Positions 2,223 to 5,200 of a stretch of DNA of 64,000 bases are shown piece after piece. Numbering within the stretch: position 1 is the first letter of the stretch; each line of letters begins with the position of its first letter. A program made the position numbers and the translations under genes. The notes beneath the pieces were generated by a model that worked only from the letters and a program-made list of their open reading frames with translations, had not been told where the DNA came from and made no database searches. Origin of the DNA: Candidatus Kerfeldbacteria bacterium (lineage in GTDB: Bacteria; Patescibacteriota; Patescibacteriia; SBBC01); the NCBI GenBank assembly GCA_016207275.1, contig JACQPY010000018.1:23960-87959 (forward strand), in the 5' to 3' direction.

Positions 2223-5200
2223 AGGTCACGGTTCGATCATCCAGCTCCGCCACGGTTGACGGCTGGCCAACCGACGCGGCTGTGGTCAGCGAGGACAGGC
2301 CTCCCTTTTTCATCAATTCCGCTTTAAAGTGCTCAACAACTTTTGCGCTTTCCGCATCAGCCTGGTAGGCCAGCGCCACTGGTTTGCCCGGTTTCAGCTT
2401 CAACTCCTTGCGCAGGGCATTAATCGCTCGCACCATTTCCCGCAAATAGCCTTCTTCGCGCAGCTCATCGGTAATGGTAATGTCCAAGGCCACGTCTTCG
2501 GCCGCCATCCAGTCCGGGCCTTCAGGCAGTTTTTTTGCCGACACAATTTCTTTGACGTTTAGCTCGTCTTTCAAAACTTCAATCAAGGTATCACGAAATT
2601 CGTGCGTCACCACCAGCTGCGACAGCGGCTGACGGACTTTCAACTTGGCCTGCGCGCGCAAGGCATGACCGGTTTCCACCACCTGACGCGCGCGGGCCAT
2701 GGTAGCCAGCAGTTCCTCGTGCCGTTCGCCGGCTGACGGCCACTCTTCCAGATGCACTGACTGTTTCCCGCCAAGCTCACGCCACAAGGCATCAGCCAGA
2801 AACGGCGTGAACGGCGCGGACAGCTTGGCGTACTGGCGCAAGACGTAGCCGAGCGTCGCCGTCACCTCACCCCGACCATCACCTTTAGCTCGTTCGCGCG
2901 AACGGCGGACATACCAGGTTGACAAGCCAGTCACGAAGCTCATCAGCTCGCGACCAGCATCAACGATGGCGTAGTGTTCGAGTTTCTTTGTGACCGATTC
3001 GCTGGTTGCATCGAGCAAGGCCAAGATCCACCGATCCATGACAGGTGCGTTATCAGTTATCGGTTGTCGGTTGGAAGGATCAACTGATAACTGATAACTA
3101 CCAACTGATAACTCATTACTGCTTCCCAACAACTTCCAAAATGACAACACGTTCCAGAGAATCATGAAATTCTTTTTGACGACCTCGGCCAGCTGGTCTT
3201 CGTCAAAGTTTTTCGGTTCCGACGGCTGGTTGATGGTGAACAGGTACATCCGCACGGCGTCAGCACCATAGGTGTCCAAGAGCTTCATCGGGTCAATGTA
3301 GTTACCCAGGCTCTTGGACAGCTTCCGGCCTTGCTTATCGCGAATGTGGCCTAAGACCACGCAGCTGTTGTACGGCGGTCCGGCTGGCACTGCTTTGGTG
3401 GTTTGCAAGAAGGTGGAAATTGCCAGCAGCGTGTAGAACCAGCCGCGCGTCTGGTCAATCGCTTCGCTGATGAAGTCGGCTGGGTAGGCGTTCTTAAAAC
3501 GACCTTTGTTTTCAAAGGGATAGTGCCACTGGGCCAAGGGCATTGAACCAGAATCAAACCACGTGTCGACCACCTCCGGAATACGCTTCATCGTTCCCTG
3601 GCCACAGGTCTGACACGTCCACGTCACCGCATCAACGAACGGCCGGTGCGGATCAAAGCTGCCGTCAGGACGAAACGCCACGGCCGGAAACCGCACCTCG
3701 TTTGCTTCGGCAAAGGCTGGGTAGTGTACTGCTTCTACCTGCGACTCGGCTTTCAGCGAGGCCGCCCATACCGCCACGAAAATCGGATCGCCGTGCGAGA
3801 CCAGGACAATGGTCTGGCCGTCGTACTTCGCATCGAGTTCAAACAGCAGCTCAAACAGTCGTTTCCGGACGTCCAACCAGGTTTCTGCGCCGCCGGGCGG
3901 CAGCGTATGAAAACGATTGACGTGGCCGAGCCGCTGGTGAAACTCCTTGGTCGTCTGGCCCTCAAACTCCGGGCCGACCTGGTATTCGTCGAGTCGCGAG
4001 TCGGTTTGCATGGCAACACCCGCGGCGGCGGCAATAGCCTGGGCCGTTTGCTTGGTGCGCACGAAATCAGACGACACGACTACCTGAACGCCCTGCCGGG
4101 CCAGCGCCTGGGCGGTCTTCTTGACCTGCTGCCGCCCGCGCTCCGTCAAGACCACGTGCTGATTCAAGGTGATTTCGGTGTTGATTTTATCTTTAAGGCT
4201 AATCGTTGCTTCGCCGTGACGAACAAAAATGTAGCGGTTACGCGTTGGCAGTTTTTTCAACAACTCCTCGTAACTTCCAATGCATTCCTGGTGTTTGCAG
4301 TGGTCGCATATCCAAATCGGCAACGGCGTGCCCCAGTAGCGCTCGCGCGAAATCGCCCAGTCCTTCACCTCTCGCAGCCACTCGCCGAAACGCCCGTCCT
4401 TGATGTGCGTCGGCACCCAGTTGATTCTTTCGTTATTCTTGATCAGCTCATTACGCAGCTTTGACATAGTAATAAACCACGACGTTTTGGCGTAGTACAG
4501 CAAGGCGTGCTTGCAGCGCCAACAGTATGGGTAGTCGTGCTCGTACTGTTCTTCCCGGTACAGTTTTCCGTGCGTCTTCAAGTATTTGACAATCGCGTCG
4601 TCGGTCTCTTTGGTCTTAACTTCCTTACCAACCCACGGTTTCACCAGCTGGTTGAACTTTCCTTCCAGATCGACCGTGTGTTTTTTCGGCAGATCAAGTT
4701 TTGAACCAAGTTCAAAATCATCTTCACCGTACATGACGGCGGTGTGCACCACACCAGTGCCTTCTTCAGTCGTCACAAAATCTGCCGGCACGATGGTATA
4801 CGCATTTTTGTAAACTTCCCCTCCTGCCTGAGGAGGGGCCGCCTCGCGTTTTCCGCCTCTGGCGGAACTACGCGGGCGGGGGTGGTGGGAGCGCAAATCA
4901 AGAAAATCAAACAGTGGTTGGTACTGTTTACCAACCAACTCCTTACCCTTAAACTCCTCAACCACGCCGGTCTGGTCATCGGCCGCCAAGCGACTGAGCA
5001 AGTCTTTAGCCACAATTACGTTGCCGTCGCTGGTCAGCGCTTTGACGTACGTCAGTTTTTCGTCCACCGCCAAGGCCACATTGCCCGGCAACGTCCACGG
5101 CGTCGTCGTCCACGCCAGGATGTACGTCCGCGGTTCATCGACTAACTCGAATTTTACGTAGACCGCTCGATCTTTCACCCGCTCGTAGCCTTGGGCCACT

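What the first reader, a model, noticed from the sequence alone, without database searches (positions are those of the whole stretch)
3660..4239. IleRS contains a ~190-aa inserted histidine-phosphatase (PGAM-like) domain in its catalytic core
A complete branch-1 histidine phosphatase signature lies between the Zn-binding CxxC segment after WAISRERYW and the DTWFDSG motif. The signature is FVRHGE...LTERGRQQ...SSDFVRTKQTAQ...VLVSHGD, with both catalytic His and the RHG/SHG motifs intact.

The reading frame is continuous, so it is a domain insertion, not a neighbouring gene.

The insertion point is where the IleRS I know from E. coli and other bacteria have only a short linker. I am not aware of an aminoacyl-tRNA synthetase with an embedded phosphoglycerate-mutase-family domain.

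The conserved catalytic residues suggest it is active. Possible substrates include 2',3'-cyclic or 3'-phosphorylated tRNA ends, (p)ppApp-like nucleotides or a phospho-protein. This is speculative.
Basis: partly seen in the sequence, partly recalled or inferred. Interest (0 to 1): 0.75.

Follow-up and report, generated by a model that had tools for sequence, protein, structure and literature searches.

The report
Phosphatase domain embedded inside IleRS
The isoleucyl-tRNA synthetase of this candidate-phyla-radiation bacterium carries a complete, apparently active histidine-phosphatase enzyme spliced into a zinc-binding loop of its catalytic core. The arrangement is widespread in that bacterial radiation, derives from a gene that elsewhere sits next to ileS, and I found no paper describing it.

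Summary
**Observation confirmed.** Window 2209-5772 (-) is one uninterrupted 1187-aa type-2 IleRS. Residues 507-704 (nt 3661-4254) are a complete branch-1 histidine phosphatase (Pfam His_Phos_1, E=1.6e-31). The domain replaces the 8-15-residue linker between the two CxxC halves of a zinc knuckle.

**Not an artefact or a singleton.**
- 100 of the 121 aligned sequences (120 homologues plus the query) carry the insert. They come from Patescibacteria/CPR lineages such as Kerfeld-, Uhr-, Komeili- and Paceibacteria.
- R518, H519, R572, E596 and H660 are essentially invariant in about 280 domain copies.
- AlphaFold2 gives a confident compact domain. Its closest solved structures are small-molecule phosphatases (PspA, GpgP, PhoE).

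**New findings.**
- In other CPR genomes the free-standing orthologue lies in a tight argS-phosphatase-ileS operon.
- Five of the seven insert-bearing CPR loci with upstream flank have argS directly upstream of ileS and no free copy. The insert is therefore most likely the relocated neighbouring gene.
- Other lineages carry the domain at three further IleRS sites, in tandem, on the ArgRS C-terminus, and in one low-coverage ValRS.

**Function.** Most likely an autonomous, active phosphomonoesterase made 1:1 with a normal IleRS. The substrate is unknown. A small anionic phosphoester is favoured, and a tRNA- or synthetase-directed role is not excluded. No paper describing this was found.

The parts
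2209..5772 (-). ileS: a single ORF encoding a type-2 isoleucyl-tRNA synthetase with an embedded phosphatase (1187 aa from TTG 5772; the likely ATG start at 5763 gives 1184 aa, identical to P0001).
   Evidence: TIGR00392 scores 859 bits. Pfam finds tRNA-synt_1, Anticodon_1 and DUF5915.
4255..5772 (-). IleRS N-terminal part (aa 1-506): first half of the Rossmann fold, the CP1 editing domain, and the start of the second half up to the first CxxC.
   Evidence: One search aligns this part to 8c8v residues 12-476. HMGH (HIGH motif) lies at nt 5605-5616 and WTTTPWT (editing motif) at 5092-5112.
4297..4308 (-). First half of the zinc knuckle: C489-D-H-C492.
   Evidence: C489 is conserved in 98% and C492 in 91% of 100 insert-bearing homologues. 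By the offset of the match, these positions correspond to 1ile residues 461/464.
3661..4254 (-). Inserted histidine-phosphatase domain (aa 507-704; Pfam envelope aa 515-678 = nt 3739-4230).
   Evidence: Pfam E=1.6e-31. The AF2 model of the domain alone has pLDDT 92.7 and pTM 0.91. Foldseek TM-score is 0.82 to 4ij5/4ij6.
4210..4221 (-). RHGE motif: R518 and the nucleophile H519.
   Evidence: R518 and H519 are present in 100/100 insert-bearing homologues. They are present in every one of about 280 domains that covers these positions.
4057..4059 (-). R572, the second phosphate-pocket arginine (SSDFVRTKQTA motif).
   Evidence: 100% conserved.
3985..3987 (-). E596, the predicted general acid/base (LDEYQVG motif).
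   Evidence: 97% E among homologues, otherwise D. The role is assigned by homology to PhoE and dPGM, from general knowledge.
3793..3795 (-). H660, the second catalytic histidine (VSHGD motif).
   Evidence: 100% conserved.
3604..3615 (-). Second half of the zinc knuckle: C720-Q-T-C723.
   Evidence: 98% conserved at both positions.
2209..3660 (-). IleRS C-terminal part (aa 705-1187): the rest of the Rossmann fold, the anticodon-binding domain and the C-terminal DUF5915 domain.
   Evidence: WFDSGS lies at nt 3544-3561, DQTRGWFY at 3433-3456 and KLSKS (KMSKS motif) at 3310-3324.
8311..9942 (-). argS (ArgRS, 543 aa), 2.5 kb upstream on the same strand. It is a remnant of the conserved CPR argS-(phosphatase)-ileS neighbourhood. 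Three genes are interposed here: GT4 glycosyltransferase, CYTH and DUF559.
   Evidence: Pfam. Synteny with L020 and with L004, L009, L013-L017 and L027.

Best explanation
**What it is.** The gene encodes a normal type-2 IleRS, and no second ileS lies in the window (whether it is the genome's only copy could not be checked). A complete, autonomously folding branch-1 histidine phosphatase has been inserted into the loop of a Cys4 zinc knuckle, between C489/C492 and C720/C723.

**Origin.** The domain is the orthologue of a roughly 190-aa free-standing phosphatase. In other Patescibacteria that gene sits in a translationally tight argS-phosphatase-ileS operon. A local rearrangement swapped the phosphatase gene with the 5' half of ileS, most simply by tandem duplication followed by deletions. 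This put the phosphatase inside IleRS, and it has since been inherited vertically with the synthetase.

**How it works.**
- The IleRS parts (HIGH, KMSKS, editing motifs, anticodon-binding domain) are intact and should aminoacylate tRNA-Ile as usual.
- The inserted module is predicted to be an active phosphomonoesterase. It would work through a phospho-His519 intermediate, with R518, R572 and H660 forming the phosphate pocket and E596 acting as acid/base.
- I infer that it acts as an independent enzyme on a small anionic phosphoester, as its closest structural relatives PspA, GpgP and PhoE do.
- The fusion would mainly guarantee 1:1 co-expression and co-localisation with IleRS in a streamlined genome, rather than alter the aminoacylation chemistry.

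**Shown:** the insertion, the fold, conservation of the catalytic residues, the distribution, and the operon origin.

**Inferred:** catalytic activity, the class of substrate, the rearrangement mechanism and its direction.
For: **Domain and boundaries.**

**Purifying selection on catalysis.**
- R518, H519, R572, E630, R638 and H660 are present in 100/100 insert-bearing homologues, and E596 in 97%.
- The same residues hold in about 280 domain copies of every architecture.
- This is despite only 37% mean pairwise identity in the insert, against 61% in the IleRS body.

**Vertical co-inheritance.** Divergence of the insert and of the body correlate with r=0.79.

**Fold.**
- The full-length AF2 model has pLDDT 92.1 and pTM 0.88, with pLDDT above 90 through both linkers.
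- The domain model has pLDDT 92.7.
- The 50 best Foldseek matches in the PDB listed are all small-molecule enzymes (phosphatases and phosphoglycerate mutases) with the same substrate cap: 4ij5/4ij6 PspA (TM 0.82), GpgP 4pz9/6s2q, PhoE 1h2e, TIGAR.
- SixA-type phosphoprotein phosphatase models were not matched by the query.
- Net charge of the domain is about 0: query 0; mean -1.4, sd 5.8, over 172 site-A copies.

**Operon origin.**
- The free-standing homologues P0161, P0170 and P0228, and the copy in L027, lie between argS and ileS with gaps of 0-10 bp. P0200 lies next to argS, with ileS convergent. P0176 lies directly upstream of ileS.
- The insert-bearing CPR loci L013-L017 have argS directly upstream of ileS. 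They have no free phosphatase and no remnant of one.
- About 60 non-CPR type-2 ileS loci have neither gene nearby.
- Free and embedded copies are as similar to each other (45-46% identity) as free copies are among themselves.

**Dispensability for IleRS.** 21 of the 121 aligned sequences lack the insert, and they are interspersed in the IleRS tree. L020 is syntenic with the window but has no insert.
Against: **Signals of a functional link to IleRS.** The association goes beyond what co-expression alone would need.
- The domain occurs at four or more different IleRS loops (sites A, A2, B and C).
- It also occurs as tandem pairs whose copies are 26-42% identical yet all keep the catalytic set.
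- In one lineage (L092) it is present with no argS adjacency.
- No simple N-terminal fusion to IleRS was seen among the best 150 hits, although the free gene lies immediately upstream of ileS.
- The linkers are short, conserved and modelled with high confidence. This suggests a fixed geometry rather than a loose tether.
- These points fit a functional coupling to IleRS or tRNA that my preferred reading does not explain.

**Gaps in the evidence.**
- No substrate evidence exists, and the domain passes no NCBIfam equivalog cutoff.
- I could not inspect model coordinates, so I do not know where the active site points relative to the tRNA path.
- The NJ tree is crude, and the direction of the rearrangement (free to embedded, or the reverse) is not resolved.
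Confidence: 0.5

Rival explanations
1. **Coupled function.** The phosphatase works in cis with class Ia synthetases on a translation-related phospho-substrate. One candidate is removal of a 3'-phosphate or 3'-pyrophosphate from tRNA CCA ends, the lesion made by toxSAS toxins such as FaRel2 and CapRel. Another is dephosphorylation of the synthetase itself after attack by HipA-like kinases (the kinase example is from my own knowledge). Either would make it a repair or immunity module built into the enzyme that needs the repaired substrate.
For: - The association with IleRS is recurrent: an operon partner, four or more insertion sites, and tandem copies that are all catalytically intact.
- The domain is also fused to ArgRS in three protein clusters and to one ValRS.
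- Sites A, A2 and B flank the WFDSGS segment in the second half of the Rossmann fold.
[quoted passage not shown] That site B is the equivalent position is from memory, not tested.
- Linkers are rigid and confidently modelled.
- The patchy presence and absence among close relatives resembles the distribution of accessory or defence functions.
- tRNA 3'-pyrophosphorylation is a real inactivation mechanism (PMC11559606 and bioRxiv 10.1101/2021.04.30.441581).
Against: - I know of no histidine phosphatase that acts on RNA ends, and the literature searches found none linked to tRNA or synthetases.
- The fold has a full substrate cap like small-molecule enzymes, and its best structural matches are all metabolite phosphatases.
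- The domain carries no net positive charge.
- Free-standing and embedded copies share the same subfamily motifs, so there is no sign of adaptation to a cis role.
- The ArgRS fusions are rare and are explained by read-through of adjacent genes.
- The ValRS case is a contig of about 2x coverage whose ORF ends inside the fourth copy.
- Operon adjacency alone could have supplied the raw material for repeated insertions.
Confidence: 0.27
2. **A known enzyme in disguise.** The domain is one of the characterised family members fused to IleRS for expression: the organism's glycolytic cofactor-dependent phosphoglycerate mutase, a phosphoserine phosphatase, or an alpha-ribazole (CobC) phosphatase.
For: - The best NCBIfam matches for the insert are the RNase H/acid phosphatase model (78.8 bits), archaeal-type small dPGM (73.4), CobC (61.2) and PspA (52.6).
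- The best structural match is the metal-independent phosphoserine phosphatase.
- An essential metabolic enzyme would explain the strict conservation of the catalytic residues.
Against: - Every equivalog score is far below its curated cutoff: 73 against 225, 61 against 163, 53 against 350, 79 against 326.
- Identity to any solved enzyme is 26% or less.
- After the catalytic Glu the sequence is E-Y-Q-V-G, not the E-R-H-Y-G typical of dPGM (dPGM motif from memory).
- Several CPR relatives lack the domain both inside ileS and within 5 kb of it. That would be odd for a sole glycolytic enzyme, though the gene could lie elsewhere in those genomes.
Confidence: 0.15
3. **Non-catalytic module.** The domain has been co-opted as a structural, oligomerisation or tRNA-binding element and no longer acts as an enzyme.
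For: - dPGM-like domains commonly form dimers or tetramers (general knowledge).
- Inserted modules in class Ia synthetases can serve in tRNA binding (PMC3643597).
Against: - All catalytic residues are essentially invariant across about 280 copies, while the rest of the domain has drifted to 25-45% identity. This is the signature of retained catalysis.
Confidence: 0.05
4. **Artefact or removable element.** The insert results from an assembly chimera, from a frameshifted fusion of two genes, or it is an intein-like element excised after translation.
For: None beyond the a priori possibility for a sequence from a metagenome-assembled genome.
Against: - The frame is continuous, and the protein is identical to the NCBI record on a 126-kb contig.
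- About 100 homologues from independent assemblies and sources have the insert at the same position.
- IleRS sequence continues on both sides of the insert, with both halves of the zinc knuckle conserved.
- Pfam finds no Hint or intein domain.
Confidence: 0.01

Closest known systems
Type-2 (eukaryote-like) bacterial IleRS, e.g. Priestia megaterium IleRS2 (PDB 8c8u/8c8v) and Thermus thermophilus IleRS (1ile)
   Same: - The whole synthetase body aligns: 784 bits to 8c8v and 751 bits to 1ile.
- HIGH, KMSKS, the editing motifs, the anticodon-binding domain and the Cys4 zinc knuckle are all present.
   Different: About 195 residues of a foreign enzyme replace the roughly 5-residue linker between 8c8v residues 476 and 482. 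A disordered 26-residue loop also sits in the editing domain.
Small branch-1 histidine phosphatases: Hydrogenobacter thermophilus metal-independent phosphoserine phosphatase PspA (4ij5), M. tuberculosis glucosyl-3-phosphoglycerate phosphatase Rv2419c (4pz9), Geobacillus PhoE (1h2e)
   Same: - Same fold, size (about 190-210 aa), substrate cap and catalytic constellation R-H...R...E...H.
- TM-scores are 0.78-0.82.
   Different: - Only 20-26% identity, and below every NCBIfam equivalog cutoff.
- It belongs to its own CPR-centred subfamily. Its motifs are N-x-Y before strand 1, (S/T)WPE, ER in the cap, and HGDP(I/L)W.
- It is embedded in another enzyme.
Bifunctional RNase H / acid phosphatase (M. 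tuberculosis Rv2228c type; NCBIfam NF005567)
   Same: A histidine-phosphatase (CobC-like) domain fused to a nucleic-acid enzyme. This is the best-scoring NCBIfam model for the insert (78.8 bits).
   Different: - That protein is an end-to-end fusion, not an insertion into a catalytic core.
- The partner enzyme is different.
- The score is far below the cutoff of 326.
Leucine-specific domain of bacterial LeuRS
   Same: A lineage-specific, compact module inserted into the class Ia catalytic domain. It can be replaced by a short peptide without abolishing activity (PMC3643597). This parallels the insert-less IleRS relatives found here.
   Different: - The leucine-specific domain is a small (about 47-aa) non-enzymatic module tied to the KMSKS loop, and it binds tRNA.
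- The insert here is a complete enzyme of another superfamily.
- The equivalence of its position to my 'site B' is from memory and was not tested.
IleRS with an N-acetyltransferase domain (NCBIfam NF040702, ileS_w_GNAT)
   Same: A curated precedent that some IleRS carry an extra enzymatic domain (the model name appears).
   Different: - The extra domain is a GNAT acetyltransferase, not a histidine phosphatase.
- The query scores 287 bits against a cutoff of 1999.
- I did not examine where the GNAT domain sits.

Membership tests
Isoleucyl-tRNA synthetase (class Ia, type 2) | Full-length match to the ileS equivalog model above its curated cutoff | tested here: met
   TIGR00392 scores 859.3 bits against a cutoff of 621.4, in two stretches split by the insert.
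Isoleucyl-tRNA synthetase (class Ia, type 2) | HIGH and KMSKS signature motifs, CP1 editing motifs and an anticodon-binding domain | tested here: met
   - HMGH at aa 53-56 and KLSKS at aa 817-821
- WTTTPWT at aa 221-227, and GTGVVHTA present
- Pfam Anticodon_1, E=6e-32

Isoleucyl-tRNA synthetase (class Ia, type 2) | Aminoacylation of tRNA-Ile, and being the only IleRS of the genome | not testable with these tools
   No second ileS lies in the 64-kb window. The rest of the genome was not available.
Histidine phosphatase superfamily, branch 1 (Pfam PF00300) | Profile match above the gathering score | tested here: met
   110 bits against a cutoff of 21.7, E=1.6e-31, covering profile positions 2-165 of 194.
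Histidine phosphatase superfamily, branch 1 (Pfam PF00300) | Catalytic core: RHG nucleophile motif, second Arg, acid/base Glu, second His | tested here: met
   R518, H519, G520, R572, E596 and H660 are present in the query and 97-100% conserved in homologues.
Histidine phosphatase superfamily, branch 1 (Pfam PF00300) | Alpha/beta fold of the family | tested here: met
   The AF2 domain model has pLDDT 92.7. Foldseek gives probability 1.00 and TM-scores of 0.78-0.82 to PspA, GpgP and PhoE.
Histidine phosphatase superfamily, branch 1 (Pfam PF00300) | Phosphatase or mutase activity through a phosphohistidine intermediate | not testable with these tools
   Inferred only from residue conservation.
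Cofactor-dependent phosphoglycerate mutase (dPGM) | Match to a dPGM equivalog model above its cutoff | tested here: not met
   NF038349 scores 73.4 against 225, and NF002901 (GpmB) 48.4 against 261.
Metal-independent phosphoserine phosphatase (PspA) | Match to the PspA equivalog model above its cutoff | tested here: not met
   NF045917 scores 52.6 against 350. This is the best structural neighbour, but identity is only 25-26%.
Alpha-ribazole phosphatase CobC | Match to the CobC equivalog model above its cutoff | tested here: not met
   TIGR03162 scores 61.2 against 162.9.
Phosphohistidine phosphatase SixA (phosphoprotein-directed branch-1 members) | Match to the SixA model; minimal fold lacking the substrate cap | tested here: not met
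   SixA is not among the 25 NCBIfam matches shown for the query (30 matched). The model shows a normal roughly 40-residue cap with two helices, at aa 591-631.
Intein | Hint/intein splicing domain and nucleophilic junction residues | tested here: not met
   No intein or Hint family appears in the Pfam scan. The insert is a complete phosphatase with short linkers.

The most novel reading that the evidence does not exclude
The embedded phosphatase may be a previously unrecognised kind of synthetase-borne quality-control or repair activity. Held rigidly next to the IleRS active site, it would dephosphorylate a translation component in cis. The most attractive candidate is tRNA 3'-CCA ends carrying a phosphate or pyrophosphate, as left by RNases or toxSAS toxins. 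The alternative is the synthetase itself, after attack by a kinase toxin. Charging could then resume. The repeated, independent capture of the same phosphatase at several loops of IleRS (and in ArgRS and ValRS) would then reflect selection for proximity to the acceptor end.
Probability: 0.2. Interest if true: 0.9.

Novelty: new variant of a known kind. Interest (0 to 1): 0.66.

Why it matters
- **Synthetase evolution.** Aminoacyl-tRNA synthetases usually acquire tRNA-binding or editing modules. Here a complete, catalytically intact enzyme from an unrelated superfamily sits inside the catalytic core of an essential synthetase. It has been maintained across a large part of the candidate phyla radiation. 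It has also been captured at several different loops and amplified in tandem.
- **Mechanism of domain insertion.** The case gives an unusually clear natural example of how a domain insertion can arise from an adjacent operon gene (argS-phosphatase-ileS becoming argS-ileS::phosphatase).
- **Testable link.** It points to a possible functional connection between a phosphatase and class Ia synthetases in organisms with minimal genomes, and this can be tested.
- **Annotation.** NCBI names the insert-bearing proteins 'class I tRNA ligase family protein' rather than isoleucine--tRNA ligase. Automated surveys may therefore score such genomes as lacking ileS.

Tried and rejected
- **Homologue search with the insert alone.** It returned only two weak hits and missed even the parent protein. 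This is a limit of the word index and was uninformative. The exhaustive profile search replaced it.
- **The search for related loci with phosphatase alignments A2 and A3.** I used the full IleRS as query instead.
- **Second ileS or a free phosphatase copy in the window.** None found.
- **Remnants of a free phosphatase in the argS-ileS gaps of insert-bearing loci.** None found.
- **T-box or other leader RNA upstream of ileS.** Rfam found only tmRNA and one tRNA in the window. Promoter and terminator scans were not above background.
- **Intein, frameshift or chimera explanations.** Rejected.
- **Assignment to dPGM, PspA, CobC, SixA or the RNase H/phosphatase family.** Rejected on curated cutoffs.
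- **Identity of the lineage carrying the site B + C architecture (L092).** No source names were available.
- **Literature.** Six searches combining synthetase, histidine phosphatase/PGAM, CPR/Patescibacteria and His_Phos_1 found nothing relevant. A CPR synthetase survey, PMC5370408, does not mention it.
- **Model geometry.** I could not read model coordinates, so the orientation of the active site relative to the tRNA path was not determined.
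Full report
**1. The observation**

- The minus-strand ORF at 2209-5772 is uninterrupted and encodes 1187 aa. It is identical to an NCBI protein from a Candidatus Kerfeldbacteria MAG that starts three codons later (P0001, 1184 aa, 126-kb contig).
- Pfam finds tRNA-synt_1 split in two, Anticodon_1, DUF5915 and His_Phos_1. 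The His_Phos_1 match covers aa 515-678 with E=1.6e-31.
- NCBIfam places the protein in ileS (TIGR00392, 859 bits against a cutoff of 621). The mupirocin-resistance type-2 models MupA and MupB are the next-best hits.
- Aligned to the solved IleRS2 of P. megaterium (8c8v), query residues 324-506 match residues 296-476 and query residues 702-1075 match residues 482-846. About 195 residues therefore replace a roughly 5-residue linker.
- The insertion lies between C489-x-x-C492 and C720-x-x-C723.
  - These four cysteines are 91-98% conserved.
  - By the alignment offset to 1ile, the first pair corresponds to Cys461/464 of T. thermophilus IleRS.
  - From memory, that pair belongs to one of the enzyme's two Cys4 zinc sites.
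- HIGH (HMGH), KMSKS (KLSKS) and the editing motifs are intact.

**2. The insert is real, old and common**

- Of the 120 best homologues, aligned together with the query (121 sequences), 100 carry the insert at the same place and 21 have only 8-15 residues there.
- Where sources give names, they are Patescibacteria/CPR lineages: Kerfeld-, Uhr-, Komeili- and Yanofskybacteria, Paceibacterota and Pacebacteria. A few MAG labels are doubtful.
- Within the insert-bearing set, R518, H519, S568, R572, E630, R638 and H660 are invariant, E596 is present in 97%, and T576/A577 in at least 95%.
- Mean pairwise identity is 37% in the insert against 61% in the IleRS body. The two divergences correlate with r=0.79. 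The insert has therefore been inherited vertically with its host, under selection focused on the catalytic centre.
- In a rough NJ tree of the IleRS body, insert-less sequences are scattered among insert-bearing clades. This implies repeated loss, or several gains.
- The insert is not needed for IleRS to function. L020 shares the window's synteny (argS, then the same GT4 glycosyltransferase, then ileS) but has a plain ileS.

**3. Structure**

- AlphaFold2 models the whole protein with pLDDT 92.1 and pTM 0.88.
  - pLDDT stays above 90 through both junctions.
  - Only aa 299-317, 887-890 and the first three residues are poorly modelled.
- The domain alone has pLDDT 92.7 and pTM 0.91.
- Foldseek against the PDB gives as best matches:
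  - the metal-independent phosphoserine phosphatase of H. thermophilus (4ij5/4ij6, TM 0.82, 25-26% identity);
  - M. tuberculosis glucosyl-3-phosphoglycerate phosphatase;
  - PhoE, TIGAR and the Entamoeba phosphoserine phosphatase.
- All of these are metabolite phosphatases with the same cap subdomain. Sequence search of the PDB gives the same neighbours.
- No NCBIfam equivalog cutoff is reached, whether dPGM, CobC, PspA or RNase H/phosphatase.
- The domain has no net charge.

**4. Where the insert came from**

A profile of 23 insert domains searched against 1.84 billion representative proteins gave 1108 hits with E<1e-30. Besides IleRS, these include many free-standing proteins of about 190 aa and tandem proteins of about 410 aa.

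*Contexts of the free-standing genes:*

| Protein (locus) | Arrangement |
|---|---|
| P0170 (L004-L006) | argS, phosphatase 2 bp later, ileS 10 bp later |
| P0228 (L009; Candidatus Staskawiczbacteria, MBI3631270.1) | argS-phosphatase-ileS |
| P0161 (L003) | argS-phosphatase-ileS |
| L027, from the GTDB genome scan | argS-phosphatase-ileS |
| P0200 (L008) | argS-phosphatase, with ileS convergent |
| P0176 (L007) | phosphatase-ileS, with argS further upstream |

*Contexts of insert-bearing and control loci:*
- The insert-bearing CPR loci L013-L017 have argS directly upstream of ileS, with gaps of 42-787 bp.
- They have no free phosphatase and no remnant of one.
- About 60 non-CPR type-2 ileS loci (Firmicutes, Chloroflexi and others) have neither gene nearby.
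- Free and embedded domains share subfamily motifs and are 45-46% identical, as close as free copies are to each other.

*Inference:*
- The simplest reading is that the insert is the operon's own phosphatase gene, relocated from just upstream of ileS into the gene.
- This amounts to a swap of the phosphatase with the 5' half of ileS. Tandem duplication of the two segments followed by two deletions would achieve it through viable intermediates. This mechanism is an inference.
- The direction is not strictly resolved. An insert-less IleRS is the universal outgroup state.
- In the window itself, argS (8311-9942) still lies 2.5 kb upstream on the same strand, separated by GT4, CYTH and DUF559 genes.

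**5. Other architectures**

Flanking motifs and Pfam scans show further arrangements:

| Architecture | Examples |
|---|---|
| Tandem pairs at the same site | P0124, P0126, P0129, P0131 |
| Site A2, just after the second CxxC | P0128, first copy |
| Site B, between WFESGSMPYA..PF and PADFIAEG.DQTRGWFY | P0128 second copy, P0132, P0138, P0179 |
| Site C, the loop before LDRWI at the start of the anticodon-binding domain | P0125, P0132, P0138, P0156 |

- In the query, site C is an extended, low-confidence loop at aa 879-912.
- Copies within one protein are only 26-42% identical, yet all keep the catalytic residues.
- P0132-type proteins occur on contigs of up to 1.06 Mb and have no argS nearby.
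- ArgRS with a C-terminal phosphatase exists in three clusters: P0235, P0278 and P0279. It is rare, and read-through of adjacent genes explains it.
- One ValRS N-terminal half carries four copies (P0123). Its contig has about 2x coverage and the ORF ends inside the fourth copy, so I treat it with caution.

**6. Interpretation**

*Solid conclusions:*
- This is a genuine, ancient domain insertion of an enzyme that is almost certainly still catalytic.
- It originated from the neighbouring operon gene.
- It sits in an otherwise canonical IleRS.

*What the phosphatase does is open.* I favour, at about 0.5, an autonomous phosphomonoesterase acting on a small anionic metabolite. In this view the fusion provides obligatory co-expression in a streamlined genome. 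The reasons are:
- The fold, cap and neighbours are those of metabolite phosphatases.
- There is no basic surface bias.
- Free and embedded forms look alike.
- IleRS relatives do without the insert.
- Conserved adjacency to ileS need not imply shared chemistry. The ribF-ileS pairing of many bacteria is an example (from memory).

*The main rival* is a coupled, translation-directed role, at about 0.27. Its support is as follows:
- The phosphatase-IleRS link persists across at least four insertion sites and through tandem amplification.
- No simple N-terminal fusion was seen among the top hits.
- The junctions appear rigid.
- tRNA 3'-pyrophosphorylation by toxSAS toxins is a documented lesion that such a module could in principle reverse.
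- Nothing here tests that possibility.

*Lesser rivals* are a known enzyme in disguise (about 0.15), a non-catalytic module (about 0.05) and an artefact (about 0.01).

**7. Novelty**

- Both parts are known families, and proteins with this architecture are present in public databases.
- NCBI mostly names them 'class I tRNA ligase family protein', and insert-less relatives 'isoleucine--tRNA ligase'.
- Six full-text searches and one CPR synthetase survey turned up no description. The searchable library excludes most subscription journals, so this does not prove absence.
- I rate the finding a new variant of a known kind: a synthetase with an accessory domain. It has unusual features, namely an intact foreign enzyme inside the catalytic core, multiple insertion sites, and a traceable operon origin.

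**8. Limits**

- The trees are distance-based.
- Contexts cover only 4-10 kb on each side (mostly 5 kb).
- I could not check whether insert-less CPR genomes keep the phosphatase elsewhere.
- Taxon labels come from MAG submitters.

Noticed in passing
window 4804-4881 (-), aa 298-323 of IleRS: A low-complexity loop rich in Pro, Arg, Ala and Gly (PRPRSSARGGKREAAPPQAGGEVYKN) is inserted in the CP1 editing domain. AF2 models it as disordered (pLDDT below 50, aa 299-317). Comparable long loops (22-44 residues) occur in the closest relatives P0002, P0003 and P0005, and loops of 21-36 residues in a few other, unidentified sequences of the alignment; most sequences have 3-8 residues there.
   Followed up: partly
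window 3037-3138 (-), aa 879-912 of IleRS: An extended, partly low-confidence loop (pLDDT below 50 at aa 887-890) lies between the catalytic and anticodon-binding domains. Other lineages (P0125, P0132, P0138, P0156) carry a second phosphatase domain at exactly this position.
   Followed up: partly
table (names given by sources): NCBI annotation calls the insert-bearing proteins 'class I tRNA ligase family protein' and insert-less relatives 'isoleucine--tRNA ligase'. The query nevertheless passes the TIGR00392 cutoff. Automated pathway or completeness surveys may miss ileS in these genomes.
   Followed up: no
window 422-1354, 1478-1798, 6428-6997 (all -): Three other phosphohydrolase-type genes surround ileS. 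A calcineurin-like metallophosphoesterase lies at 422-1354. A short NUDIX ORF of 106 aa lies at 1478-1798; it covers only the first half of the NUDIX profile and may be truncated or frameshifted. A CYTH-domain protein lies at 6428-6997, between argS and ileS. Whether this clustering means anything is unknown.
   Followed up: no
window 5870-6313 (-): A DUF559 gene (endonuclease-like, of the Vsr/MTES_1575 type) sits immediately upstream of ileS, inside what is a tight argS-ileS pair in other CPR genomes. It may be a mobile or selfish insertion into the old operon.
   Followed up: no
window 12110-12523 (+): A tmRNA gene (Rfam RF00023, 90.7 bits) lies about 2 kb from argS. In other CPR loci smpB lies near argS, 0.5-2 kb upstream on the opposite strand (L001, L004, L009). 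Trans-translation genes therefore seem to be part of the same conserved neighbourhood.
   Followed up: no
window 56369-62120 (-): Three ribonucleotide-reductase genes lie in a row. The first is an 830-aa large subunit with a C-terminal TSCPD domain (59628-62120). The second is a small subunit (NrdB) with an N-terminal ATP-cone (58070-59512). The third is a 557-aa large-subunit-like protein matched in three stretches (56369-58042). An ATP-cone on the radical-generating subunit is an uncommon architecture.
   Followed up: no
window 27182-31269 (-): Two adjacent paralogous NHL-repeat beta-propeller proteins of about 670 aa each.
   Followed up: no
L093/L094 (P0123): A ValRS N-terminal half carries one phosphatase domain inserted before the W-x-ISRQ motif and three tandem copies after WGHRIPVWY. 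The ORF stops inside the fourth copy and a new ORF starts 10 nt later. The contig has about 2x coverage. This could be a split gene, a pseudogene or a sequencing error.
   Followed up: partly
L092 (1.06-Mb ENA contig, P0274): This IleRS has phosphatase domains at sites B and C. It comes from an unnamed lineage whose neighbourhood is not obviously CPR-like: pyruvate:ferredoxin oxidoreductase, adenylosuccinate synthase, a DAHP/KDO8P-synthase-family gene, and a 1476-aa SLH-domain protein. The architecture may extend beyond Patescibacteria.
   Followed up: partly
L004-L006, L009: A small amino-acid-kinase-family gene (PF00696, 109-229 aa) precedes argS in the argS-phosphatase-ileS loci. In L004-L006 it overlaps the start of argS by a few bases. 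Its identity (UMP kinase or another member) was not determined.
   Followed up: no
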